Assembly: GCA_965115855.1 (NCBI GenBank)
Contig: OZ220470.1
Coordinates: 2,328,422 to 2,392,421 of the forward strand
Direction: 5' to 3'
Length of the DNA: 64,000 bases
Source: Vicinamibacteria bacterium
GTDB lineage: Bacteria; Acidobacteriota; Vicinamibacteria; Marinacidobacterales; Marinacidobacteraceae
The notes beneath the pieces were generated by a model. The model had not been told where the DNA came from and searched no databases. It saw only the letters and a program-made list of their open reading frames with translations. Numbering within the stretch: position 1 is the first letter of the stretch; the number at the start of each line of letters is the position of its first letter. Positions 20,033 to 58,548 of this stretch are shown here, piece by piece. Made by a program: the position numbers and the translations under genes.

Positions 20033-23000
20033 TCACCAGCCGAGGGCGCCCTGGAGCGCGAGTCGCCGGTCCCGCGTTCCCATGACGCTCTCGCGCCGCG
20101 CCCCTTCGAGGTCCAGCCGGAAGAGCGGACCCAGCTGGTAGCGGGCGCCGAGCCGCAGGGCCCGGCCCATCTCCGCCATCTGGAGGCCCGCATACGGGGT
20201 CAGGACCCCGGCCAGGGGAAGCCCGAACCCGTGGCCGCCCTCCGCCGTCAGCCGCCGCTCCGCCCGCAACCCCGCCATCGGGGTCGGGGAGAACGCCGGG
20301 GTCCGGTCGAACATCTGCTGCAGGCCGCTCTCCGTGCCCCCCTGCGACGGCGCCACCTTCAGGAACGGACCCCGTCCCTCATCGCCGGGATCGAGGCTCA
20401 CCATCGCCCCCACGCCCCACTCACGGCGTTCCGTCTCGGCGTGCGTGACCAGCGCCCGGCTACGCACTTGCAATGTCAGTCCCGGGTCCCGCATCCGGTA
20501 CGCCACGCTTCCGCCGACCTCGACCCCCGCGCCCTCCACCGCGTCGCCCCGGTCGTACAGAACCCCCACCTCCAGCGCCGGCGTCAGCGTACCCGTGCCC
20601 AGCGTCCGCTCGTGCGAGCCTTCCAGCATCAACCGCAACCGGCTGGTGTGCGCCGTCAGGCCCTCGAGGCCCGACTCCGAGGCCGTGCTGAAGCGCGCGT
20701 ACGAACCCTCGCCCTTGACCGCCAGCCGGGTCATGCCCCCCGCCAGCAGATCCGCATCCCGGAACAGCACGCTCCGACCGCCCACCGCACCGCTCGCAAA
20801 CGACATCCCCGCGTCCCGCTTGTTCATTCCCGTCTCGGTCACTCGCACCTCGCCCCGACCGTAGCCCCCGCTCGCCCACAGGTTCGACCCGTCGGGCGCC
20901 AGCCACGCCAGGTAGGGGTGCGCCGAGGTCAGTCCCGCCTCGTAGATCCCGGCCACCGAACCGGTCTCGGCGGCGCCGCTCGCATCGAAGTCGCCGGTCG
21001 CGTGCGACACCACGATCCCCGCGAGGAAGTCCGAACCGATCCGCGCGTCCGCGCCCACGTGCGCGGACCACAGTCCCCCGTCCCACGAGACCTCACGGTC
21101 GGTCCCGGAAAGCGACAGCCGTCCGCCCCGGCCCCAGACGCCGATCGCCGGGAATCCGCCCTCCTCCTCTTCCTGGCCGAGCGTCATGCCGAACGCCGCC
21201 CCGTCCAGCACGTCGGCGAGCCGCAACGGCCGGTCGGTCCGCCCGCCGAATCCGGTCCGATCTCCTAACGCTCCCGTCCGGCCGTCGTGCCGCAGGTTGA
21301 GCACTCCTTCGGAAGAGGCGGACATCGGCATCGCGCCCAGCCGCAGCTCGCGCGACGCGAACCCCGCCGACACCGACTCGATCCGGTCGGCAACCGCCCC
21401 CAGCGTCTGCGTCGCGAACCCCGCCGCGAACTGCGGAAGGATCACCTCGTTCAACCGATTCGCACGACCCAGCGCCTCCGCCGACGTCGTGTTCCGCACC
21501 GTCACCGACACCGACTCCGCCGTCACCCCGCCGTAGTCCCCGCCGGACACCCGGTGGCTCACCGTCGCCCTCATGTCCGCCAGCGAGTCCTCGTCCTCCA
21601 CCCCGCTCACCGTCACCGTCTGCGGGGTGTCCCAGTTCGCGGCGGTAAAGGAGAGCGCCTCCGAGACCGTCGCCGCTCCCCCGTCGCTGCTCGCCGGGGT
21701 GACCGTCACCGGACCCGTCGGTTCGCTGGTGAGCACCACCGTGTAGGTCCCGCTTCCGTCCTCGTCCACCGTCAGTTCGGTCGGGGTCACCGTCACCCCC
21801 GCCTTGTCGTTGTCGGTCACCCGCACCGACACCGCATCGGCCTTCACCGAGTCGTAGTCCCCGCCCGAAACCTCGTGGGTCAGGGTCGCGGTATCCGCCA
21901 CCGCGTCGGCGTCCTCCGCCGCGCGGACCGTCACCGTCTGCGCCGTGTCCCAGTTCGCGGCGGTGAACCCGCGCGACGCCGGCGCCACCGTGATGTCCCC
22001 CGCCGCGCCAGCGATCGCCACCGTCACCTCCGCCGTCGGCTCGCTGGTCAGCGCCACCGTGTAGGTCCCGCTTCCCCCCTCGTCCACCATCAGTTCGGTC
22101 GGGGTCACCGCAACCCCCGCCTCGTCGTTCTCGGTCACCCGCACCGACACATCGGCGATCGAAACCGAACCGTAGCCCCCGCCCGACGCCTCGTGGGTCA
22201 AGGTGGCTGTGTCCGCCACCGCGTCGGCGTCCTCCGCCGCCCGGACCGTCACCGTCTGTGGCGTGTCCCAGTTCGCCGGGGTGAACGTCAACGACGACGG
22301 TGAAACCGTCACATCCCCGGACGCGCCCGACACCGTGATCGTGACGTTCCCCGAAGGACGCCGGTCCAGAACCACCGTGTAGACGGCGCCGCCGCCCTCC
22401 GACACCCGCAGCGTCGCCCGCGACACCGTCACGCCTTTCGTCCCCGTGGGAGTCGTCGAGCCGCCGCCGGAACCGCCACCACCTCCTCCGCCGCCACTGG
22501 CGGTCGGCGCCTGCGACGTCGCCGTTACCCGGATCACAATCTCCTCGGTGTCCGAGTTGCCGTTCCCGTCCGACGCCGTCACCTCCATCGTGTATGTCCC
22601 TACCGTTGTCGTCGTGAACATCAAACGCGCCTGGTTCAGCGCCGTGCCGCCGGGAATCGCCGGCGCCGTCTCGCCCGCCTTGCGCGTCCAGGCGTAGGTG
22701 ATCGGGTCGTTGTCCCCGTCCGTCGCCACCGCCGTGATGTCCACCGCCTGGCCGGCCTTCACTGTCCGGTTCGCGATCCCCGACAGCACCGGCGACTCGT
22801 CGTCATCCTCGATCGTCCCCGTCGCCGTCGCGTCCGTGATCGTCGTCCCCGCCGATGCATCGGACAGGGTCACCGTGAACGTCTCGTTGTTCTCGTCGAG
22901 ATCGTCGTTCGTCACCGACACCGTGACCGTCGCGCTGCCCGCGTTCGCCGCGACCGTCGCCGCGGTCGCCGGCGTCACCGCGGTGAAGTCCGTGCCCGCC

Positions 23001-24665
23001 GTCGCCGTGTCGCCGCTTTCCGCCGTCACCGTGTACTTGAACGACGCCTCCGACGAGGGCGCAGGAGAAGCCGTCACCGTGAACGTGAACGTCCCGCCCT
23101 CCGCCGCCGTCACGTCCCCGATGCTCAGCGAGGTCGGGACGTTCTTCAGCGTGCCGTCCGCCGTGCGGTCGGCCCCCCGCACATAGCCGGTCCCGTTGCG
23201 CAGGGTGATCCGGTAGGCCTCCGCGCCTTCCACCGTCGAGTCGAGGATCGTCGGGATCGTCACCGTCCCGGTCGTGCTCGCGGTGCTGCCGAAACTTGCG
23301 GTGAAGTTCCTCGGACCGAGCGAACCCCGTATGTCCGCCGCAGTGAAACCGTTCGAACTCCGCGCCGCCAGCCGCAGACGCACCTTCAGGTCTCCGGTCA
23401 GCGCCTTGTCCGACGTGACCGTCAGGCTGATCGCCGTCCCCTCGGTCACCGCCGCCGGATCATTCAGAAGCTGCAGGACCGGCGTCGTGTCGGTCACCGT
23501 CACGTCCACATCGTCGATACCGAGCTCGTTGCCGTAGTCGGCGTCGGAGCTCGCCGACGAATGCGTCAAGGTCGCCGTGTCGTCCTCCGCGTCCGCGTCC
23601 GTCCCCGCGTTCACCGTGATCGTCTGCGCCGTGTCCCAGTTGGATGTCGTGAAGGTCAGCGGCGAACCCGCCACCGTTACATCGCCCGACGCGCCGCCCA
23701 CCGTCACGGTCACGCTCGCCGAGGGTCTCCTGTTCAGCTTCACCGTATAGGTGTTGCTGCTCCCCTCTTCAACCGTCAGCGACGACGGCGAGATAGTCAC
23801 CCCGGCGGGAGGGTTCGGTGTCGCCGTCACCTCGTTGGACATGGGAGCAAGGATGGCGGTCGGGACACCCGGAGGGGGGGTGGTCGTGCGCCCGACCTGG
23901 AAGCTGTACGCGGTACCGTTGGTCAGACCCGTCACCGTGTGGGTTCGTTTTGTCTTCCCGCCGGGAATGTCGTACATGCTGCCGCTGCCCCCTCCGGCGC
24001 CTTTCTTCTGAAGGTACACCCAGGAGAGGAAGAACTCCGGGTCCGCATATGTCCAGTCAAGTCTCACCCGTCCGTCACCCGGCGTGGCGGAAAGGACGAT
24101 GGCGCTGGCCATCGGCGTCACGGTGACTGCATCCGAGACCACTCCGTAACCGACGTTGTTCACCGCGCGGATCTTGAAACTGTACGTTCTGCCGTTCCTC
24201 AGACCCGTCACCCGGTAACTCTCCGTCGTTGCGCTGGCCCCGGTCATGGTGATCCACGACCCGTAGCGCCCCGTGCCCGACTTCTGCCGGTAATCCCATC
24301 CGGTAATGCTGGGATCACTTGGAATCGCCCACGTCAACAATACGCTTCCAGAGCCCGGAGTGGCGCTGACTCTCGTTGGCTTGACAGGTACTTGCGCTTG
24401 CTGTCCGATGATACCGGCATCCCTCTGGTTGGTCCGAGCCAACCCGGCGGCGTTCCGTGCCCCCGCATCCGGCGCAAGGACGACGGCCAGCGAGATCGTA
24501 GTGAGTGCCGCGACTCGGCGGCGAGCGTTTCTTCTACCGGGCGCCCTCAGCCCCGCGTCTGGATTTCGGGGGGGGGGGGGGGGGTAGAGAGTCGCGTTGC
24601 GCCGGACCGAAACCAGCGGGGCCCAACACCCGCGTCACGCGCTGCGGCCTTGCTGTCACTTCCAT
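20033..24665 (-). CDS. large autotransporter (type Va) adhesin-like protein
   Basis: Built from FN3 domains, five ~100-aa passenger repeats and a C-terminal beta-barrel. The C-terminal ~300 aa match autotransporter beta-domain architecture and end in ...LALQGALGW. Passenger: 2 FN3 domains, then five repeats with signature NWDTxQTVTVxAxxDADxxDDTATLTH. A signal-peptide-like region RRRVAALTTISLAVVLAPDAGA lies upstream of the first annotated codon. The proposed true start is ATG 24665 with SD AGGAG 7 nt upstream, but it is out of frame at the current 17-nt homopolymer. Confidence 0.7.
24568..24584. repeat. G17 homopolymer (C17 on the coding strand) in the autotransporter leader
   Basis: Direct count of 17 consecutive G. 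The upstream ATG frame and the signal-peptide frame differ by 1 nt across the tract. Confidence 0.9.
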
Positions 24666-25159
24666 CACGAACTCCTGCGAATGGCCGAATAAAGGAGCAG
24701 GAACACTCCATCGGGGTTGGTGAACCACCCCAGGGGAATCACCGGTTTATGTAAAGGGGATTGTTTCCGAATCAGGAGTCGCAAATCAAGTGCGTGTATG
24801 AGCCCACGGGATATCCCGGTCGTTCACGACGAAAGGGGCCTCAACTCAATTTCGAGTGGATACGGGCGGGAAGCCCGTCGGGGGGCCGGGTGTCAAGGGC
24901 GGGCGTAGCCCGGCGGAGTGGACCCTTGACGCACGGACCCACGAGGGGCATGCTTGGTTCGGGTCGAAGGCAGCAGAATGCTGTTTTCGGCCCATCACTG
25001 CCTGGGAAACTCCTCATGGAGAACCAGATATTCGGAACCGCGCTCGGCTTGACGGGACTTTGGTTCGTCGAGGTTCCTCCCGCACCGTTTTCTTCCTCAT
25101 CTCCGGGAAATTCGACTTCCCAAGCTCAGCACCCATTTCGCCTAACCCACTCGAAATTC

Positions 25160-26598
25160 GGCTCTATTGAATTTCGAGTGGGTTATGCGAGGTGAGGGTT
25201 GAGCTTGGAGAAGTCGAGTTTTCCGGCGATAAGAAAGAAAACGGTGCGGATGGTGCGGAAGGAACGATACCCCCTGGCTTTCCGCTTGGCGGATTGGAAG
25301 AGGCCATTGAGGGCTTCTATGAACCCGTTGGTCTGGCGGGTTCGGGCCCACGCGGTGATGCCGTCGAAGTGTCTTCGGATCATCCGGGCGACGGCTTTCA
25401 TGGGTTCGATCCGGGATCGATTCACGTTGGTGCACCACTGCTGGAGCATGGCCCGCATGACATGGACTTGCTTGCGGTGGAGGATGGCACGGAGTTGCTC
25501 CCGGTACCGCCAAGCTCGAGTGGTGCGCTTCCCAGCGGTCTGTGCGATCAGCGCGTTGAGTGCGGCGCGTTGGTTACGGCTGAGGTGTGTCGGATTCTTG
25601 AGCAAGGTCCAGCGCATGCCCTTGATCCCCGGATCGACCCGCTGCTCGATGCGTCTGGTTTCGTCGAGGGCACTCGAGGCGTGGGCGACGACATGGAACT
25701 TGTCGAAAGTGATTTGGGCATGGGGCAAATGCTTCGCAACCCCCTTGATGAAAGCAGGGGACATGTCGATCGAGACGAACCGGATCGCTTCGGGAGCGCC
25801 ACCCTGTACCGCCAAGTTCCGGGCGAATTGTCCGACCGTGTCGGCCCCCCGGCCCTCCCCGACAAACAGCACCCGGCGCTTGCGGGCGTCGGCGGCAACG
25901 GTGACATAGGCGTGCCCCCGGGCCCGGGAGGTCTCGTCGATTGCGACGGCGCGAACGTCGCCCTGGTCGTCCTCCGCGGAGGCGAGTTCCACGTATTGGT
26001 TGCAGATGGTCTGAACCCGGTGTGGAGAAATCTTGTTCAACCGTGCGACCGCGGCGAAGGGCATTTCCCGACTCATGACGATCACCAACGCTTCGAAGAG
26101 CGCAGTGAACCCGGAGACCTGACCCGTCCAGGGCGTGGTGACCAGCGCGATCCGTCCGTCGGGCAGACGGACTCTCGGAACCCTCGCTACCACTTCGCAT
26201 TCATACTGGAAGAAGTTGAGGTGGCGATAGCGCTTGGTCTTGGTGTCGTGGATGGGGTGTGTACCTTCGTGGTCCTTGTGAGGAAAGCGGGCGCCACGCT
26301 GAAAGTCGATATGGATGATCAGCTTGCGATCACACTCGACAAACTTCACGCTTTCGACGAACCAAGGTTCGATGAGGCCAAGGGCGGTTGCGAAGATGCG
26401 GTGGATATCTGTCATGAGATGCTTCTCCTATGCAGAGATGGGCCGAAAAGCAGCATTCTGCCGCTTTTCGAGCCCGAACCAAGCATGCCCGTCGCGGGTC
26501 CGTGCGTCAAGGGTTCGCTCCGCCGGGCTACGCCCGCCCTTGACACCCGGCCCCCCGACGGGCTTCCCGCCCGTACCCACTCGAAATTGAGTTGAGGC
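25160..26598 (-). mobile_element. ISL3-family insertion sequence, copy 1 (1439 bp)
   Basis: Identical to the copy at 56000..57438. Imperfect ~24-bp terminal IRs (GGCTCTATTGAATTTCGAGTGGGT / GCCTCAACTCAATTTCGAGTGGGT). 8-bp TSD cgaaattc at 25152-25159 and 26599-26606. Confidence 0.85.
25183..26415 (-). CDS. ISL3-family transposase
   Basis: 410 aa, identical to the ORF at 56023..57255. Its conserved blocks match the ISL3 (IS1001/IS1096/IS1165-type) family. Confidence 0.85.
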   Translation of the reverse strand: MTDIHRIFATALGLIEPWFVESVKFVECDRKLIIHIDFQRGARFPHKDHEGTHPIHDTKTKRYRHLNFFQYECEVVARVPRVRLPDGRIALVTTPWTGQVSGFTALFEALVIVMSREMPFAAVARLNKISPHRVQTICNQYVELASAEDDQGDVRAVAIDETSRARGHAYVTVAADARKRRVLFVGEGRGADTVGQFARNLAVQGGAPEAIRFVSIDMSPAFIKGVAKHLPHAQITFDKFHVVAHASSALDETRRIEQRVDPGIKGMRWTLLKNPTHLSRNQRAALNALIAQTAGKRTTRAWRYREQLRAILHRKQVHVMRAMLQQWCTNVNRSRIEPMKAVARMIRRHFDGITAWARTRQTNGFIEALNGLFQSAKRKARGYRSFRTIRTVFFLIAGKLDFSKLNPHLA

Positions 26599-26624
26599 CG
26601 AAATTCAATAGAGCCCGAAAGGGG

Positions 26625-27130
26625 AACCCATGAAGACGCGCTCGAGGGAGCGGCATCTGGCCGCATCTCGGTATCCGGCGCGGAGACAACGGCCAGCGTG
26701 ATGGTGGCGCGTGCCGCGTTCCGGCGGTTCTCCTGCTGGGCGACCTCAACCCCATGTCTGGATTTCGGGGGGAGATATGCGTTCACGCGGTACGGGGAAC
26801 CATGTCGCTGCGCAGCCGGTTGTCATGACGGTGAATTTCCCGGATCGGCAGGCAGGAAGCGCGGATGCTCATTTGAGTAACGCCTCGGAGGGTAACACCG
26901 ACAAAGCGAAGCATGTTCTCCTGGTCAGCTTCATCGTGTCATGTCCCGCTCGCTCCCTCGTCCACCGCAAGTTCGGCCAGAGTGATCGTCACCGTGATCG
27001 TCGCGCTGGTCGCTTGTCTTGCGCAGCGATGCTACCCCCGGTCGCCGTCGCAACCGCCGTGAAGTCCGTGCCCTCGGTCGCCGATGGTCAGCAAAGTCGT
27101 ATCGTCGTTCAGACCGACGCACCACATCGC
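26625..27130 (-). pseudogene. decayed paralog of the autotransporter 5' module (leader with C6 tract plus passenger-like fragment)
   Basis: 26672-26790 is homologous to 24462-24600 and includes gtctggatttcgggggg. The ORF from GTG 26786 reads MNAYLPPKSRHGVEVAQQENRRNAARATITLAVVSAPD... straight through the C6 tract. 26800-27130 resembles passenger repeat DNA (accgccgtgaagtccgtgccc...) but is frame-broken. Confidence 0.35.
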
Positions 27131-47630: not shown

Positions 47631-49066
47631 CCGGGATCGTCTTCGGCGTCTACCTCGCCACGATCTTCCTGATCGGGTGGGTGGCGCTCCGCCGCACGCG
47701 AAACGAGAGCGATTACTGGATTGCCGGGGGCCGGCTCGGCTGGTTCCTCGGGGGGGCGACGCTGGCCGCCACCCACGCGAGCGCCGGAACCTACATCGGG
47801 ACCGTGGGAGTGATCCACGCGGTGGGGTGGGAATTCGCCTGGCTCGTCCTGTTCATCCCCCTGAGCTACTGGTTCATGGCGGGGGCGCTGGCGCCCCGCT
47901 TCGCCCGCACGCGGGAACTCACCCTGCCGGCATTTCTCGAGCGCCGCTACTACAGCCGCCGCGCCCGCGCCCTCGCCGCGGTGGTGATCCTCATCGCCAC
48001 CACCGTGTACATCCAGGCGCAGGTCCTCGCCGGCGGGCTCATCGCCCAGACCGTGTTCGGCATCCCGCCGACCTGGGGCATGGCCGTCTTCACCGTGATC
48101 CTGCTGGCCTATACCGCGGTCGGCGGCATGGTGGCGGTGGTCTGGACCGACCTGGTGCAGCTGGTGGTCATGGTCGTCGGCGCGCTGATCGCGGTTCCCA
48201 TGGTCTGGCGGATACTGGATGGCCCGGCGGCCCTGTTCGCCGCCGTCGAGACCCTGCGGCCGGATGCCTTCGCGTTCGGGCAGCTGCCCGGCCTGTTGCT
48301 GTTCACGATGGGCATCTCGTTCCTGCTGGGGGGAATCGCCACCCCCGAGAAGCTGGTGCGGCTCCATGCGATGCGCGACCAGCGCTCCATCCGCCGGGGA
48401 CTGCTGCTGGCCATGGCGGTCGCCTCCGGCGTGAATCTGCTGGTGTTCCTGCTGGCGCTCGCGGCGATGGGGCTCTTTCCGGTGTTGCCGAGCGGGGATC
48501 TCGCCATGCCGCTGATCGCCTCGGCGGCGCTGCCCCCGGTGCTCGGAACGATCCTGCTCGCTGCCATCGTGTCGGCGATCATGTCCACGGTGGATTCGCT
48601 GCTGCTGGTGGCCGGATCGGCCCTTGCGCACGACATCCTCGGTGCGTTGCGCCCGGGCGCCTCCGACCGGGCCCGACTCGCCGCCGCCCGACTCGGCATC
48701 CTGCTGGTCGGGGCGGCGCCGCTGGTCCTGATCCTGAGCGGCGTGGGAGAGGGGGATCTGGTGCAGTTCATCGTGCTGTTCTTCACCGCGATCATGGCCA
48801 GCGCCTTCTTCGTGCCGGTAGTGGTGGGCGTCTACTGGCGGCGACTGACCCGCGAAGGGGCGGTGGCGGCGATGGTCGCGGGAGTGGCCACCGTATTCGG
48901 ATGGCAGGCGGATATCCTGCCGTGGACCGGGTTCGGACCAGACTTGGTGCATCCGGCGGCGCCGGGAGTGCTGGTCTCGCTGCTCGTCGGCGTGTTGGTG
49001 AGCCGAGCGACCCCGCCGCCGCCGGAGTCCGCGCTCGCGCCGTATTTCGGAGGGACGGATCGATGA
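47626..49066 (+). CDS. sodium:solute symporter (SSS family)
   Basis: ~480 aa, 13 TM helices, with SSS conserved blocks. Start codon is ambiguous (non-ATG, CTG/ATC region at 47626-47640). Confidence 0.85.
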
Positions 49067-49437
49067 AGGTGAAGGGACTCGGAGTGCGGGTTGTCGGCGG
49101 CATGGGCCTGCCGCCCTTCGGCGTGATCGTGAGCCGGGCGCCACTGCCGGAGTCCGCGCTCGCGCCATATTTCGGAGGGACGGATCGATGAAGGTGAGGG
49201 GACGCGGGGTGCGGGTTATCGGCGGCATGGGCCTGCCGCCTGTCGGCGTGATCGTGAGGCGGGCACCGCTGCCGGAGTCCGCGCTCGCACCGTATTTCGG
49301 AGGGACGGGTCGATGAAGGTGAGGGGACTCGGGGTGCGGGTTATCGGCGGCATGGATCTGCCGCCTGTCGGCGTGATCGTGAGCCGGGCGCCGCTGCCGG
49401 AGTCCGCGCTCCGGCCCTGTTTCGGGAGGACCGGCCG
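49063..49437 (+). repeat. 3 tandem copies of a 125-bp unit spanning the SSS-stop/SDR-start junction
   Basis: Period exactly 125 bp, starting at 49063, 49188, 49313 and 49438. Units are diverged, not identical. Each carries GGAGGG, an ATG and a 42-aa ORF whose TGA overlaps the next ATG. Confidence 0.9.
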
Positions 49438-50229
49438 ATGAAGCTCGAGGGACGTGGAGTTCTCGTCACGGGCGGCGCCCGCGGCATGGGCCTGCTGCTC
49501 GCGCGCATGGCGCAGGAGCGCGGAGCCCGGGTGGCGATCTGGGATACCCACGACAGCGCCCTCGCTGCTGCCAGCGGGGAACTCGGCGGCGCGGTCGCTG
49601 CCGACGCGGTGGACGTTGGGTGTCCGGAAGCGGTGGGTCTCGCAGCCGAACGGCTTCCCTTCGCGGTGGACGTGCTCGTGAACAACGCCGGCGTGGTCTC
49701 CGGCAAGCGCTTCCCCGAGCTGACGCCGGAGGAGGTCCGCCGTACCCTGCGCGTGAATCTGGAAGCGTTGTTCTGGACTACCCGCGCGTTTCTTCCCGGC
49801 ATGGTGCGCCGTGGTGAGGGCCATCTCGTGACCATGGCCTCCGCCGGCGGTCTTGTCGGCGTCCCGGCGCTCTCCGACTACTGCGCGTCCAAGTTCGGAG
49901 CGGTCGGGTTCCACGAATCGGTTCGCGCCGAACTGCGGCACACGGCGCCCGGCATCGGGACCACCCTGGTGTGCCCCTTCTTCGTGAACACCGGAATGTT
50001 CGCGGGAGTGCGGACCCGGTTCCCGTTCCTGCTCCCGATTCTCGATCCGGGCGCGGTCGCCGCGGCGACTGTCCGCGCCATCGAGCGGAATCGGGCGACG
50101 GTGGTCCTCCCCTGGTTCGTCCACTCGCTCAAGCTGCTCCGGCTGCTGCCGTCGGCCTGGCTGGATCCGATCGCCGCCTTTTTCGGCATCCACGCTTCGA
50201 TGAGAAGCTTCACCGGCCGCCGACGTTGA
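49438..50229 (+). CDS. short-chain dehydrogenase/reductase (SDR)
   Basis: TGGARGMG cofactor motif, NNAG, and catalytic YxxxK (YCASK). Confidence 0.85.
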   Translation: MKLEGRGVLVTGGARGMGLLLARMAQERGARVAIWDTHDSALAAASGELGGAVAADAVDVGCPEAVGLAAERLPFAVDVLVNNAGVVSGKRFPELTPEEVRRTLRVNLEALFWTTRAFLPGMVRRGEGHLVTMASAGGLVGVPALSDYCASKFGAVGFHESVRAELRHTAPGIGTTLVCPFFVNTGMFAGVRTRFPFLLPILDPGAVAAATVRAIERNRATVVLPWFVHSLKLLRLLPSAWLDPIAAFFGIHASMRSFTGRRR

Positions 50230-54299: not shown

Positions 54300-54466
54300 C
54301 CGAGCGCATCAAGATCGATCAGGGCGGGCTGGGGTTCGGCATCTGGGTGATCGGATGGTTGTTCACCATCGGATTTCTCGACCTCGGGTTCCGCGCCGGG
54401 TTCGTGGCCTTCGTCATCTGGCCCTACCGCCTCGGCGTCCGTTTCGCGGAGATGGTCGGCTTCTGA
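54296..54466 (+). CDS. small two-TM membrane protein
   Basis: 56 aa: MTERIKIDQGGLGFGIWVIGWLFTIGFLDLGFRAGFVAFVIWPY... ATGA overlap with the ACAD stop. Confidence 0.4.
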   Translation: MTERIKIDQGGLGFGIWVIGWLFTIGFLDLGFRAGFVAFVIWPYRLGVRFAEMVGF

Positions 54467-55404
54467 TCCCCCGGCTGCTCGTCCTGTTGTTCGTCGCCGG
54501 TTGCGGTGGGCCGCTGCCGGTGTGGCTGGACGTGGATCCGGCGGTGATGCGCGGGGGCCATGAACCCGATGACGGGGTGGCGATGGTCCAGGCGTTCCAC
54601 TCCCCGGAGGTGGAAGTGGTGGGAGTCGGTGTGGCCTTCGGGAACGCGCCACTCCCGATCGGGCTTCCGATCGCCCGGCGCATCGCCGCCGAGTACGGCC
54701 CGCCCGGCCTCCCGGTTCACGAGGGCGCCGCCTCGCCGTCCGCGGATCCCACTCCGGCATCCCGGGCGCTCGCGGCCGCCCTTCGGGAACGCCGACTGAC
54801 GGTCCTGGTGCTGGGGCCGGCGACGAATCTCGCGGCCACTCTTCGCGCGGACCCCGGGTTGGCGAAGCGGCTCGAATCGGTCGTCCTGGTGGTCGGGCGG
54901 CGCGCAGGCGAGCCCTTGACCTTTCCCGGAGGCGGCCCGAATCTTCCCGACTTCAATTTCGAGCTGGATCCGGCCGCTGCGAAGCTGGTCCTGGCGAGCG
55001 GTGTCCCGATCACCCTGGCGCCCTTCGAGTTCGCGGTGCGCCTTCCCGTGACCGAAGCCGACTGGACCCGTCTGTGGAGTACTCCGTTCGCCCGCCTCTT
55101 TCGCGGGCCGATCGAGGACTACCTCGACTGGTTCGGGGAGAACCAGGGCCTGCGGGCCACCTACCCCTTCGATTCCTATGCGGTGGCATCGGTTGTCGCG
55201 CCCCACCTTCTCCGGTGCGATCCGGAGACCGTCGCGGTGCGCCCCGGTCCCGCCGACACTCCCACCGACGAGGGAGACACCAAGCCCTGGCTGATACCGG
55301 TTGCGTCCGGAGCGGGATGGCCGGTTACCTGGTGCCACACCCCGGATCCGGCGCTGCGGGACGACTTGCTCCGTCGGCTGGCGTCGCCTCGCATCGATCC
55401 TTGA
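54463..55404 (+). CDS. inosine-uridine preferring nucleoside hydrolase family lipoprotein
   Basis: DVDPAVMRGGHEPDDGVAMV plus the GN motif of IU nucleoside hydrolases; lipobox LFVAGC. Start codon unclear. Confidence 0.7.
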   Translation: MIPRLLVLLFVAGCGGPLPVWLDVDPAVMRGGHEPDDGVAMVQAFHSPEVEVVGVGVAFGNAPLPIGLPIARRIAAEYGPPGLPVHEGAASPSADPTPASRALAAALRERRLTVLVLGPATNLAATLRADPGLAKRLESVVLVVGRRAGEPLTFPGGGPNLPDFNFELDPAAAKLVLASGVPITLAPFEFAVRLPVTEADWTRLWSTPFARLFRGPIEDYLDWFGENQGLRATYPFDSYAVASVVAPHLLRCDPETVAVRPGPADTPTDEGDTKPWLIPVASGAGWPVTWCHTPDPALRDDLLRRLASPRIDP

Positions 55405-55999
55405 CCACGGGCTCTCAGAACGGTCGGAATTTCGAAACACCTCGATGGGATTTCCGTGTCTGCTTCGGAGTTCTTTCTTTTGAGTTTCGAATCGCTACTG
55501 AACATGTACTGAAACAGGACCCACAAACGCGCACTCTGAAATGCGAACGGCTTGGGTCAACCGAATCAATGTCATTGCTTTCCTTCGAGTTGGAGTTTCG
55601 TGCGCAAATATTCCATTCCTCTTGGACCCTTTATGCGGTTACAGCTCCCACATAGAAGTTGAAGATTTTCCAAGTGATCTGTCCCTCCGTATGCTCTTGC
55701 GATAATGTGGTCAATTTCGAGATTGCGCATCTCGAAGTGCACACCACAACCTTCGCAATCACCCTCTTGTTGTCCATAAAGAGTCGCCTTGTGGCAACTT
55801 GGAGGAGGGAGAGATCCCAAATCGGTTCTGAGCGGCACATCCGTTCTATGAGCGACTCTCCCGAAAACCTCACCCCGAGCCTTTATTCGTTCAACAACAA
55901 GGTCCCCTGCCTTGGGAGAAAGGTCTATCCCTGCCCATTTTCGAGCCAACTCGTTGGCAGCAACCATGGTCGTGGCACATCCACAGAATGGATCCAAAA

Positions 56000-57438
56000 G
56001 GCTCTATTGAATTTCGAGTGGGTTATGCGAGGTGAGGGTTGAGCTTGGAGAAGTCGAGTTTTCCGGCGATAAGAAAGAAAACGGTGCGGATGGTGCGGAA
56101 GGAACGATACCCCCTGGCTTTCCGCTTGGCGGATTGGAAGAGGCCATTGAGGGCTTCTATGAACCCGTTGGTCTGGCGGGTTCGGGCCCACGCGGTGATG
56201 CCGTCGAAGTGTCTTCGGATCATCCGGGCGACGGCTTTCATGGGTTCGATCCGGGATCGATTCACGTTGGTGCACCACTGCTGGAGCATGGCCCGCATGA
56301 CATGGACTTGCTTGCGGTGGAGGATGGCACGGAGTTGCTCCCGGTACCGCCAAGCTCGAGTGGTGCGCTTCCCAGCGGTCTGTGCGATCAGCGCGTTGAG
56401 TGCGGCGCGTTGGTTACGGCTGAGGTGTGTCGGATTCTTGAGCAAGGTCCAGCGCATGCCCTTGATCCCCGGATCGACCCGCTGCTCGATGCGTCTGGTT
56501 TCGTCGAGGGCACTCGAGGCGTGGGCGACGACATGGAACTTGTCGAAAGTGATTTGGGCATGGGGCAAATGCTTCGCAACCCCCTTGATGAAAGCAGGGG
56601 ACATGTCGATCGAGACGAACCGGATCGCTTCGGGAGCGCCACCCTGTACCGCCAAGTTCCGGGCGAATTGTCCGACCGTGTCGGCCCCCCGGCCCTCCCC
56701 GACAAACAGCACCCGGCGCTTGCGGGCGTCGGCGGCAACGGTGACATAGGCGTGCCCCCGGGCCCGGGAGGTCTCGTCGATTGCGACGGCGCGAACGTCG
56801 CCCTGGTCGTCCTCCGCGGAGGCGAGTTCCACGTATTGGTTGCAGATGGTCTGAACCCGGTGTGGAGAAATCTTGTTCAACCGTGCGACCGCGGCGAAGG
56901 GCATTTCCCGACTCATGACGATCACCAACGCTTCGAAGAGCGCAGTGAACCCGGAGACCTGACCCGTCCAGGGCGTGGTGACCAGCGCGATCCGTCCGTC
57001 GGGCAGACGGACTCTCGGAACCCTCGCTACCACTTCGCATTCATACTGGAAGAAGTTGAGGTGGCGATAGCGCTTGGTCTTGGTGTCGTGGATGGGGTGT
57101 GTACCTTCGTGGTCCTTGTGAGGAAAGCGGGCGCCACGCTGAAAGTCGATATGGATGATCAGCTTGCGATCACACTCGACAAACTTCACGCTTTCGACGA
57201 ACCAAGGTTCGATGAGGCCAAGGGCGGTTGCGAAGATGCGGTGGATATCTGTCATGAGATGCTTCTCCTATGCAGAGATGGGCCGAAAAGCAGCATTCTG
57301 CCGCTTTTCGAGCCCGAACCAAGCATGCCCGTCGCGGGTCCGTGCGTCAAGGGTTCGCTCCGCCGGGCTACGCCCGCCCTTGACACCCGGCCCCCCGACG
57401 GGCTTCCCGCCCGTACCCACTCGAAATTGAGTTGAGGC
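56000..57438 (-). mobile_element. ISL3-family insertion sequence, copy 2 (1439 bp), inserted in the MTase-HNH gene
   Basis: 100% identical to 25160..26598. 8-bp TSD atccaaaa at 55992-55999 and 57439-57446. The frame bookkeeping (1447 nt, congruent to 1 mod 3) fits the flanking ORF frames. Confidence 0.9.
56023..57255 (-). CDS. ISL3-family transposase (copy 2)
   Basis: Identical 410-aa ORF. Confidence 0.85.
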   Translation of the reverse strand: MTDIHRIFATALGLIEPWFVESVKFVECDRKLIIHIDFQRGARFPHKDHEGTHPIHDTKTKRYRHLNFFQYECEVVARVPRVRLPDGRIALVTTPWTGQVSGFTALFEALVIVMSREMPFAAVARLNKISPHRVQTICNQYVELASAEDDQGDVRAVAIDETSRARGHAYVTVAADARKRRVLFVGEGRGADTVGQFARNLAVQGGAPEAIRFVSIDMSPAFIKGVAKHLPHAQITFDKFHVVAHASSALDETRRIEQRVDPGIKGMRWTLLKNPTHLSRNQRAALNALIAQTAGKRTTRAWRYREQLRAILHRKQVHVMRAMLQQWCTNVNRSRIEPMKAVARMIRRHFDGITAWARTRQTNGFIEALNGLFQSAKRKARGYRSFRTIRTVFFLIAGKLDFSKLNPHLA

Positions 57439-57710
57439 ATCCAAAACAAGGTCGCCCACGTCGGATGTGGAACTGATGATCCGGTGCAGAAGCGCGAGCG
57501 GTTTCTGTGTCGGAAAGCCGGTACGCTCCTTGGAAGACCCGGGAATGATCGGAATATCCCATACATCTCGCATTGGCATTCCGAGTGATTTTTTGTCTCC
57601 CGTGATTTTCTTGGATTTGGTAATCGGATCGAGGATTTGCGACCTCCCCTTGAATACGCGAAGAGTGGACGTTGATAACTCCTCGTAGCCCTGATTCCAA
57701 GACCATCTTA

Positions 57711-57726
57711 CCCCCCCCCCCCCCCC
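57711..57726. repeat. C16 homopolymer (G16 in the mRNA; poly-Gly codons) inside the MTase-HNH reading frame
   Basis: Direct count of 16 C. The upstream and downstream MTase frames differ by 1 nt across the tract. Confidence 0.9.
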
Positions 57727-58548
57727 GTATACCAAAAGAGAACGTCGTGCATTCGCTGAAATCGGCGCTGCTTTGACGGCCACCGCTTGTACGACCATAT
57801 GATTTCGTTCTGGAATGCGTCTTTCCCAAATACTGAATCCATGACCATTTTCAGGGGATGACTCATCGTGGGGTCACAGTGAAGCCACACTGATCCTGTC
57901 GGTTTCAGTATTCTTCGAATTTCCAAAATGCGCGGCGCCATATAGGCGAGATAGGATTTGTCGCTATCTGTAATGGCTGCCAAGATAATCTTGTGGAGAG
58001 ATGGATGCTTGGCTTCAATTAGATTGACCCACTCAGCATCTACATCGGAGAGCGACCACGTATCTTTAAAAGCAGCCCCTGCTGCCGTAGAACCAATAGG
58101 TGCGGCGTAGTCGGACTCGGAGTTGAAAGGAGGATCCAAATAGATTAGATCCACTGACTCGGAATTCATGCCTCGCATAATTGGGAGGTTGTCTCCGGTC
58201 CATACAGTCTTGTCGGCCCAATTCGGTTTGCCCATATCGAGAGGATATAGGAAACCTCACGCCATCGACACGGCACTCACCGATGGCGGCGTTTACGCTG
58301 CCTGCGAAGGACTTCGTGGCGCACGCCAAAGTGGATCGTTTTGATCGACTGCGAGGAATCGGCCTGCCTGCATGGTCCGGCAAGGGGTCGGTCCGTGCGT
58401 GCGGGATCGCCACGAGGTCAAGCGGATCGACGAGGAACTTTACGTCGGAACCAGTCGGGCTTCCACGGTGCTCTCAATGGGCATAAGCTTCCTCCGTACG
58501 CGCCGGAACTGCGCAAGGAGGTCTCTTTTGGGAAGACGAACAGCGGGA

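What the first reader, a model, noticed from the sequence alone, without database searches (positions are those of the whole stretch)
57700..57740. Second homopolymer (C16) frameshifts a methyltransferase-HNH gene: candidate phase-variable methyltransferase or artefact
The MTase N-terminal piece (DLIYLDPPFNS ... HDVLFWYT) runs into 16 consecutive C (poly-Gly codons on the coding strand) and terminates. The MTase continues without loss of similarity in the +1 frame immediately after the tract (VRWSWNQGYEEL ... FPTQKP ... GDLVLDPFCG). One extra C, or two fewer, restores a continuous enzyme. Homopolymer-gated MTases are the basis of phasevarions in Haemophilus, Neisseria and Helicobacter. Caution: this tract and the G17 tract each lie ~250-270 bp outside an IS-containing repeat region, a geometry also expected if assembly or poly-G read artefacts were merged at repeat-induced contig ends.
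Basis: partly seen in the sequence, partly recalled or inferred. Interest (0 to 1): 0.75.

Follow-up and report, generated by a model that had tools for sequence, protein, structure and literature searches.

The report
Poly-G switch in IS-broken methyltransferase
The 16-base C run is a real slippage-prone tract inside a DNA methyltransferase-nuclease fusion gene. Relatives in many uncultured marine (mostly sponge-associated) bacteria carry on/off tracts of varying length at the same spot, but the copy here has also been split by a mobile element and is dead.

Summary
C16 (57711-57726, G16 on the coding minus strand) is real and far beyond chance. It frameshifts a horizontally acquired (50% GC in a 67% GC genome) beta-class DNA methyltransferase-HNH fusion gene.

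A 1439-bp ISL3-family element with an 8-bp target duplication splits the gene upstream of its AdoMet-binding motif. Fixing the tract alone therefore does not restore the enzyme. Removing the IS and setting the tract to 14 or 17 gives an intact 404/405-aa protein with no other lesion.

The artefact reading is essentially refuted:
- Independent assemblies of homologues carry G12-G15 at the identical codon position.
- One >=97%-identical lineage shows G15 (intact) versus G11 (split) at the DNA level, and G10- and G13-type products.
- At least 26 database fragments break frame at a Gly run in this loop.
- A second tract class sits just after the start codon; G10 (on) and G12 (off) alleles differ by no other indel over 7.2 kb.

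G/C runs >=9 are nine-fold enriched in these genes over their flanks.

Verdict: this is a relic of a slipped-strand on/off tract in a gene family not previously linked to phase variation, locked off here by the IS. The exact length, and so the off state, is soft. A phasevarion role is unproven.

The parts
57711..57726 (-). Homopolymer tract: C16 on the + strand, G16 on the coding strand. It encodes a Gly run in the loop right after the HDVLFWYT strand. Length 16 is out of frame; 14 or 17 is in frame.
   Evidence: loop position
57727..58235 (-). MTase-HNH gene, N-terminal segment (residues 1-170): DPPFNS catalytic motif up to the HDVLFWYT strand
57447..57710 (-). MTase-HNH gene, middle segment (VRWSWNQ...FPTQKP...GDLVLD): the variable target-recognition-like region, in the next frame after the tract
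57439..57446 (.). Target-site duplication ATCCAAAA, right copy
56000..57438 (-). ISL3-family insertion sequence, 1439 bp. Imperfect terminal inverted repeats (GGCTCTATTGAATTTCGAGTGGGT / GCCTCAACTCAATTTCGAGTGGGT). 410-aa transposase ORF at 56023-57255. 100% identical to the copy at 25160-26598.
55992..55999 (.). Target-site duplication ATCCAAAA, left copy
55572..55991 (-). MTase-HNH gene, C-terminal segment: PFCGCATT (AdoMet-binding motif I), linker and HNH domain (CEGC...DHII...N...CGSC)

Best explanation
The tract is a genuine slippage-prone poly-G run in the coding strand of a horizontally acquired beta-class (PF01555) DNA methyltransferase fused to a C-terminal HNH nuclease.

It sits in a length-tolerant Gly-rich loop between the conserved HDxxxxY strand and the variable DNA-recognition region. 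This is upstream of both the AdoMet-binding motif and the HNH domain.

Gain or loss of G during replication (slipped-strand mispairing) moves the gene between one in-frame state and two out-of-frame states. In frame, extra glycines are added to the loop. Out of frame, the products are truncated and lack AdoMet binding and the nuclease. Because both activities are on one polypeptide, they go on and off together.

In this genome the assembled length (16) is an OFF length. Independently, a recently transposed ISL3 element has split the gene, so this copy is now a locked-off relic of the switch.

Shown: the tract, the frames, the IS insertion, the otherwise intact coding sequence, same-site tracts and ON/OFF length polymorphism in homologues, and tract enrichment.

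Inferred: that slippage is the mutational mechanism, that mutability is selected for, and what the enzyme does (defence-like single-chain restriction-modification versus epigenetic regulation).
For: 1. The tract is real, extreme and frame-shifting.

2. Only two lesions exist. Removing the IS and one TSD copy and setting the tract to 14 or 17 gives a 404/405-aa ORF with PF01555 + PF01844 and no other stop.

3. Other homologues carry tracts at the same codon position:
- L001 has G15 (YTSGGGGGGHTFN).
- L002 has G15 (YSRGGGGVIWNQ).
- L084 has G12 (YAGGGGETWN).
- All three are in frame. L117 has G8.

4. Length varies within a lineage at this loop.
- L118 (G11, gene split into 174 + 232 aa) versus L002 (G15, intact) are 97.1% identical over 2.4 kb.
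- Database proteins P0260 and P0261 (98.8% identical to L002) have the lengths and tails simulated for G11 and G10 (P0260 matches residue for residue; P0261's tail has two substitutions). P0338 (93%) has the G13-type tail, though it starts 22 residues later and is 189 aa, not 211.

5. At least 26 distinct N-terminal fragments in the protein database run out of frame or stop right after a run of 3 or more Gly at this loop.

6. A second tract class lies just after the start codon.
- L115 has G10 (ON) and L003 has G12 (OFF). They are 99.917% identical over 7197 bp, and the tract is the only indel.
- L114 has G13 (ON) and L021 has C14 (ON).
- L016 has C9 and L026 has G9, both OFF.

7. G/C runs >=9 number 12 in 120 kb of gene (+100 nt upstream) versus 5 in 450 kb of flanks across 83 loci. 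The rate ratio is 9, p = 1.6e-5, and positions cluster at two hot spots.

8. The loop is coil after strand 160-170 in the AlphaFold model. It varies in length among homologues.

9. The two IS copies are 100% identical, so the insertion is recent.
Against: - No reads or sibling assemblies of this species were available. The source contig is in the database, but neither the gene fragment nor the transposase could be retrieved, and the ACAD cluster has a single member. Length variation at this locus itself is therefore untested.
- The exact length of 16 may be a consensus error. Related genomes carry contig names typical of long-read metagenome assemblies. If so, the OFF call is soft.
- The IS insertion means no selection can currently act on this tract.
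- The fraction of frameshifted fragments is inflated, because the query ended in GGGGG.
- Frequent OFF alleles would also fit a mere mutational hot spot seeded by GGN Gly codons in GC-rich genomes, without selection for switching.
- The activity, target site and biological role of the MTase-HNH fusion are unknown.
Confidence: 0.7

Rival explanations
1. Assembly or sequencing artefact: a poly-G/poly-C read tail or a contig-end merge near a repeat created the tract.
For: - Both long tracts of the window lie 254 and 273 nt outside IS/MITE ends.
- Neither long tract has a counterpart of intermediate length in the window.
Against: - The gene is colinear with the same homologues on both sides of the tract, with no lost or duplicated residues.
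- Homologues in independent assemblies have G11-G15 at the identical codon position. These include SPAdes NODE contigs, other short-read scaffolds and ctg-style long-read contigs.
- The G17 site also has a C6 counterpart in its paralogue.
- The IS proximity has a simpler explanation: both IS insertions and tracts reside in dispensable accessory genes.
Confidence: 0.03
2. The tract is real but its consensus length is miscalled, or is the mode of a mixed population. The true gene could then be in frame at the tract (14 or 17), leaving the IS insertion as the only inactivating lesion.
For: - One base more restores the frame.
- Relatives' contig names (ctgNNN_NNx_c/l) suggest a long-read metagenome assembler, for which long homopolymers are the main residual error. 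This rests on my own knowledge.
- Three of four assembled same-site tracts in other genomes are in frame.
Against: - Nothing in the sequence argues against 16.
- Many relatives are also assembled out of frame.
- This rival changes only the present state, not the nature of the tract.
Confidence: 0.2
3. Plain pseudogene decay: the gene died (IS insertion) and the run expanded neutrally afterwards, or the loop is simply a mutational hot spot with no switching function.
For: - There are two lesions in one gene.
- The Gly-rich loop (GGN codons) supplies G-run seeds. A continuum exists from interrupted runs (GGAGGTGGCGGA, GGGGGGAGGA) through G8 to G16.
- OFF alleles are common.
Against: - There are no other stops or frameshifts in 1.2 kb.
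- The IS copies are 100% identical, so the insertion is recent and leaves little time for a 10-nt expansion.
- Intact genes carry equally long tracts at the same site.
- OFF alleles with DNA in hand keep intact downstream frames.
- An independent second hot spot right after the start codon uses either G or C runs, which Gly codons cannot explain.
- Tracts are nine-fold enriched over the flanks.
Confidence: 0.1
4. Expression-level slippage: RNA polymerase or ribosome slippage on the long G run yields some full-length protein from an out-of-frame allele, so the DNA frameshift does not mean OFF.
For: Long homopolymers are known to cause transcriptional slippage (general knowledge). Nothing specific was found here.
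Against: - DNA-level length polymorphism is observed directly in relatives.
- In this copy the IS would still truncate any product.
Confidence: 0.05

Closest known systems
Homopolymer-gated restriction-modification and methyltransferase genes of Helicobacter, Campylobacter, Neisseria and Haemophilus (contingency loci; e.g. PMC4209511, PMC2823697, PMC5084427)
   Same: - A long poly-G/C run lies inside the ORF of a DNA methyltransferase-type gene.
- One-base changes toggle between full-length and truncated products.
- Length polymorphism is seen between near-identical alleles of homologues.
- Some family members place the tract near the 5' end.
   Different: - The hosts are uncultured, GC-rich, largely sponge-associated bacteria of several phyla rather than AT-rich host-adapted pathogens.
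- The gene is a stand-alone beta-class MTase fused to HNH.
- The main tract lies mid-gene in a structural loop.
- No switching rate, methylation or phenotype data exist.
Type III Mod phasevarions (ModA and others)
   Same: - Same Pfam family for the catalytic domain (PF01555).
- PADLOC Type III MTase models and the PDB EcoP15I and Mod chains give partial hits.
- An SSR in the mod ORF is the switch.
   Different: - There is no adjacent res gene.
- The best PADLOC hits are Type II MTase models.
- A C-terminal HNH domain replaces a separate Res subunit.
- No evidence exists for a regulated gene set.
CcrM / M.RsrI-type beta-class N6-adenine (or N4-cytosine) methyltransferases
   Same: - Motif order is DPP[FY] ... 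HE/HDxxxW/Y ... variable region ... FxGxG.
- Best PDB sequence hits are 6pbd (CcrM) and 1eg2 (M.RsrI).
- The tract corresponds to the loop after CcrM's HETLIWASK strand.
   Different: - Scores are far below the NCBIfam equivalog cut-offs.
- An HNH domain is fused.
- The gene is mobile and patchily distributed. It often lies next to IS1595-family transposases, and once within a phage head-gene module.

Membership tests
SSR-mediated phase-variable (contingency) gene | Long simple-sequence repeat within the ORF or promoter | tested here: met
   G16 lies on the coding strand at 57711-57726. The next longest run in 64 kb is 8.
SSR-mediated phase-variable (contingency) gene | Repeat-number changes move the ORF between full-length and truncated frames | tested here: met
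   Lengths 14, 17 and 20 give a 404-406 aa product. Other lengths give 174-176 or 298-299 aa. This simulation was run after removing the IS.
SSR-mediated phase-variable (contingency) gene | Repeat length differs among otherwise near-identical alleles or cells | tested here: inconclusive
   - Not testable at this locus, because no sibling assembly or reads exist.
- Met in homologous lineages at the same loop: G15 versus G11 at the DNA level, and G10- and G13-type products.
- Also met at the 5' tract: G10 versus G12, with 99.917% identity over 7.2 kb.
SSR-mediated phase-variable (contingency) gene | The gene is otherwise functional, so that switching is reversible | tested here: not met
   An ISL3 insertion with an 8-bp TSD separates residues 1-264 from motif I and the HNH domain. 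Slippage alone cannot restore function in this copy.
Phasevarion | ON/OFF state of the methyltransferase changes genome methylation and the expression of a set of genes | not testable with these tools
   This needs methylome and transcriptome data from ON and OFF populations.
Type III restriction-modification Mod subunit | mod gene paired with an adjacent res (helicase-nuclease) gene | tested here: not met
   - Neighbours are a nucleoside-hydrolase-like ORF and an alkaline phosphatase; there is no res gene.
- The best PADLOC models are Type II MTases.
Beta-class N6A/N4C DNA methyltransferase (Pfam PF01555) | Domain match above the curated cut-off, with the DPP[YF] catalytic motif N-terminal to the FxGxG AdoMet motif | tested here: met
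   - PF01555 scores 157.7 bits against a cut-off of 26.7, covering residues 28-295.
- DPPFNS at residues 34-39 and DPFCGCATT at 265-273 are read from the sequence.
HNH endonuclease domain | PF01844 match with His-Asn-His and two CxxC pairs | tested here: met
   - PF01844 scores 50.4 bits against a cut-off of 21.4, covering residues 344-388.
- CEGC ... DHII ... NLQLLCGSCN are conserved in all 30 aligned homologues.
ISL3-family insertion sequence | DDE_Tnp_ISL3 transposase, terminal inverted repeats, 8-bp target duplication | tested here: met
   - PF01610 scores 225 bits.
- The element is 1439 bp with inverted repeats.
- TSDs are ATCCAAAA here and CGAAATTC at the second copy.

The most novel reading that the evidence does not exclude
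A horizontally mobile methyltransferase-HNH fusion family, spread across many phyla of uncultured and largely sponge-associated bacteria, has repeatedly evolved poly-G/C contingency tracts at two hot spots: just after the start codon and in the loops flanking the HDxxxxY strand. If so, it is a phase-variable single-polypeptide restriction-modification or epigenetic switch in GC-rich environmental symbionts. The window's copy is one such switch, caught OFF and then killed by an IS.
Probability: 0.5. Interest if true: 0.7.

Novelty: new member of a known kind. Interest (0 to 1): 0.55.

Why it matters
Homopolymer-driven phase variation of methyltransferases is textbook for a handful of AT-rich, host-adapted pathogens. 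It has hardly been looked for in uncultured, GC-rich symbionts.

The comparative data here point to a recurrent on/off tract in one mobile MTase-HNH family across Chloroflexota, Acidimicrobiia, Acidobacteriota, Proteobacteria and Rhodothermales MAGs. That suggests stochastic switching of defence or epigenetic functions in dense, phage-rich animal microbiomes.

It also carries a practical warning. Such genes will routinely be annotated as pseudogenes or as split ORFs. Their apparent state in a consensus assembly depends on a length that both sequencing and populations blur.

For this window itself, the practical result is that the gene is a dead, doubly disrupted copy.

Tried and rejected
- **Exact look-ups of the window's own proteins.** The 175-aa N-terminal fragment, the transposase, and the 100%-identical ACAD hit P0121 were all 'not on record'. 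The source contig and any sibling strains could not be fetched.
- **Pattern scans.** ATGCAYGAY-N(15-22)-G10 in viral contigs gave 3 chance hits with no family homology. FQRMHD plus C9 in JGI metagenome contigs gave 0 hits.
- **The search for related loci with the single protein in metagenome contigs.** It returned 25 mostly distant loci (32-65% identity) with no G/C tract >=8.
- **Terminal repeats or a TSD around the low-GC MTase island.** Nothing convincing. The promoter/terminator scan was uninformative.
- **L073 and L076 as further homopolymer frameshifts.** L076 shifts at a T8 run and L073 at no run. Neither is at the loop.
- **P0063's GGGG loop.** It is encoded by GGAGGTGGCGGA, not a homopolymer.
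- **Type III Mod assignment.** Rejected: there is no res gene and the best models are Type II.
- **Literature searches.** Searches for phase variation or SSRs in sponge symbionts, or for MTase-HNH fusions, found nothing relevant.

Full report
**Observation**

The + strand carries 16 consecutive C at 57711-57726.
- The only comparable run in the 64-kb window is G17 at 24568-24584. The third longest homopolymer is 8.
- From composition, about 1e-3 runs of this length are expected. From the window's own run-length decay, about 1.5e-5.
- On the minus strand the ORF 57708-58235 reads MGKPNW...DLIYLDPPFNS...RMHDVLFWYTGGGGG and stops.
- The neighbouring frame continues VRWSWNQGYEEL...FPTQKPLALLHRII...GDLVLD.

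The continuation stops being methyltransferase after GDLVLD, because a 1439-bp element lies at 56000-57438.
- It encodes a 410-aa DDE_Tnp_ISL3 transposase (PF01610, 225 bits).
- It has imperfect terminal inverted repeats and is flanked by an 8-bp direct duplication, ATCCAAAA.
- It is 100% identical to a second copy at 25160-26598. That copy has its own 8-bp duplication and sits inside a roughly 330-bp deletion derivative of the same IS.
- The rest of the gene (PFCGCATT..., linker, HNH domain) resumes at 55999 and runs to 55572.

Deleting the IS and one duplication copy in silico, and setting the tract to 14 or 17, gives an uninterrupted 404/405-aa protein. It matches PF01555 (157.7 bits) and PF01844 HNH (50.4 bits).

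The gene therefore has exactly two lesions and no other decay. 'One extra C restores the enzyme' is true only after the IS is removed.

The gene is 50% GC in a 67% GC window, which points to horizontal acquisition. In a related genome (88% identical flanking ACAD) the same slot, between the acyl-CoA dehydrogenase and alkaline phosphatase genes, holds a PIN/RHH pair and an Mrr nuclease instead.

**Is the tract an artefact?**

The reconstructed protein aligns end to end with more than 8000 database homologues, the best at about 70% identity.
- The tract falls in a short, length-variable, often Gly-containing loop between the invariant H-D...Y strand and the conserved [FW]N.

The DNA of homologues is decisive.
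- L001 (68% identical, an ENA metagenome scaffold) has G15 at the same codon position.
- L002 (65%, a SPAdes MAG contig of a Chloroflexota bacterium) has G15.
- L084 (49-61%) has G12.
- All three are in frame.
- L117 has G8. L116 and L082 have interrupted Gly-codon runs.

Each tract-bearing protein has closer relatives without a tract. The feature is therefore patchy and has probably arisen repeatedly. An artefact that recurs at one codon of one gene family across assemblers and platforms is not credible.

**Does the length vary between close relatives?**

Yes, at this very loop.
- I simulated L002's gene with G8 to G19.
- The 174-aa protein P0260 (98.8% identical) is the G11 product residue for residue. 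The 210-aa P0261 (98.8% identical) has the length and out-of-frame tail of the G10 product, with two substitutions in the tail. P0338 (93%) has the G13-type tail, but it starts 22 residues later and is 189 aa rather than 211.
- The DNA of P0260's contig (L118) indeed has G11 where L002 has G15.
- In L118 the gene is split into 174-aa and 232-aa ORFs that are otherwise intact. The two loci are 97.1% identical over 2.4 kb.

A search with the window's 175-aa fragment listed 120 N-terminal-only fragments.
- 29 have at least 3 Gly at this loop.
- At least 26 of these then go out of frame or stop.
- That fraction is inflated because my query ended in GGGGG. The existence of dozens of independent frameshifted alleles is not affected.

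**A second hot spot**

Several relatives carry the run right after the start codon.
- L021 reads ATG GAA AAT AT-C14 and is in frame.
- L003 (G12), L016 (C9) and L026 (G9) are out of frame.

In one 90%-identity cluster:
- L115 has G10 and a 419-aa ORF.
- L003 has G12 and is frameshifted.
- L114 has G13 and is in frame.
- L003 and L115 are 99.917% identical over 7197 bp, and the tract is their only indel.

Two further members have runs in the loop just before the H-D motif: L018 with G13 and L070 with G9.

Across 83 family loci, G/C runs of 9 or more occur 12 times in 120 kb of gene (+100 nt upstream). They occur 5 times in 450 kb of flanks. The rate ratio is 9, binomial p = 1.6e-5, and positions cluster at -16 to -6 and +449 to +512.

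**Mechanism**

Sequence hits to CcrM (6pbd), M.RsrI and others place the enzyme in the beta class of N6-adenine/N4-cytosine methyltransferases. The tract corresponds to the loop after CcrM's HETLIWASK strand.
- In an AlphaFold model (pLDDT 68.9, pTM 0.72), residues 160-170 form a strand and 171-180 are coil.
- In-frame length changes only add or remove glycines in a loop that tolerates 4-7 residues.
- Out-of-frame lengths truncate the protein before the target-recognition region, the AdoMet motif and the HNH domain.

I infer slipped-strand mispairing as the mutational process. I also infer, from the fusion, that methylation and nuclease activities are switched together. That would avoid the lethality of switching off a methyltransferase alone.

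What the fusion does is not known. Possibilities include a compact restriction-modification enzyme, a selfish mobile module, or an epigenetic regulator.
- It often sits next to IS1595-family transposases.
- In one case it sits among phage head genes.
- In another it sits next to AbiE and OLD-family genes.

**State of this copy**

As assembled it is OFF (16) and IS-disrupted.
- The identical IS copies imply a recent insertion. An OFF gene is a neutral target, so the order 'switched off, then hit by the IS' is plausible but unproven.
- The exact length is uncertain. Close relatives' contigs carry names typical of long-read metagenome assemblies, where long homopolymers are the main residual error. 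A consensus also hides population heterogeneity.
- No sibling assembly of this species exists in the searchable collections.

**The IS-proximity geometry**

It has a simpler explanation than an artefact: both tracts and IS insertions lie in dispensable accessory genes.

The G17 run lies on the minus strand between an ATG and the signal-peptide-like start of a 1469-aa repeat protein, in a different frame. A paralogous 5' region has C6 at the same place. It looks like a second contingency tract of the classical surface-protein kind.

**Comparison with known systems and novelty**

The kind is well known: homopolymer-gated methyltransferase and R-M genes in Helicobacter, Campylobacter, Neisseria and Haemophilus (for example PMC4209511, PMC2823697, PMC5084427).

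This is not a Type III mod gene. There is no res gene and the best PADLOC models are Type II. A phasevarion in the strict sense is untested.

Full-text searches found no report of SSR phase variation in sponge symbionts or in MTase-HNH fusions. I file it as a new member of a known kind. The family-level pattern is the interesting part. The local copy is a dead relic.

Noticed in passing
window 24568-24584 (and 26724-26772): G17 (C17 on the minus strand) sits between an ATG (MEVTARPQRV...) and the signal-peptide-like start (RRRVAALTTISLAVVLAPD) of the 1469-aa repeat-rich ORF 20033-24442(-). The two parts are in different frames as assembled. A paralogous 5' region has only C6 at the same place and is cut by the IS/MITE. 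It looks like a second, surface-protein-type contingency tract.
   Followed up: partly
window 24838-26615: The second ISL3 copy (25160-26598, TSD CGAAATTC) is inserted into the terminal repeat of a roughly 330-bp MITE-like deletion derivative of the same IS (24838-25159 plus 26599-26615). That derivative's 127-nt end is 96% identical to the full element.
   Followed up: partly
window 54300-58370 versus L113 11887-13760: The slot between the acyl-CoA dehydrogenase and alkaline phosphatase genes is variable between related genomes. Here it holds a nucleoside-hydrolase-like ORF plus MTase-HNH. The relative holds a PIN/RHH toxin-antitoxin pair plus an Mrr nuclease. This looks like a small defence islet.
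   Followed up: partly
L001, L084, L114, L118 (gene tables): An IS1595-family transposase gene lies next to the MTase-HNH gene in four of the eight gene contexts seen in other genomes (L001, L082/L083, L084, L114, L115, L116, L117, L118). The fusion gene may travel as cargo of such elements, which would explain its spread across phyla.
   Followed up: no
L014 3481-3526; L076 about 3915; L073 about 3915: Other lesions occur in family members. L014 (Longimicrobiales) has an in-frame TAA in the same loop. L076 has a frameshift at a T8 run. L073 has a frameshift at no homopolymer.
   Followed up: partly
window 49016-49476: A tandem repeat with a 125-nt period, at least three overlapping copies at 85-92% identity. 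Not examined.
   Followed up: no
locus table: Judging by record titles, relatives of this MTase-HNH come overwhelmingly from sponge-associated MAGs of many phyla, including one Nitrosopumilus archaeon. Titles name Poribacteria, Poriferihabitaceae, Porisulfidus and IRC/COS/RHO/CAR bins. The window itself appears to be from an Acidobacteriota genome of about 3.0 Mb.
   Followed up: partly
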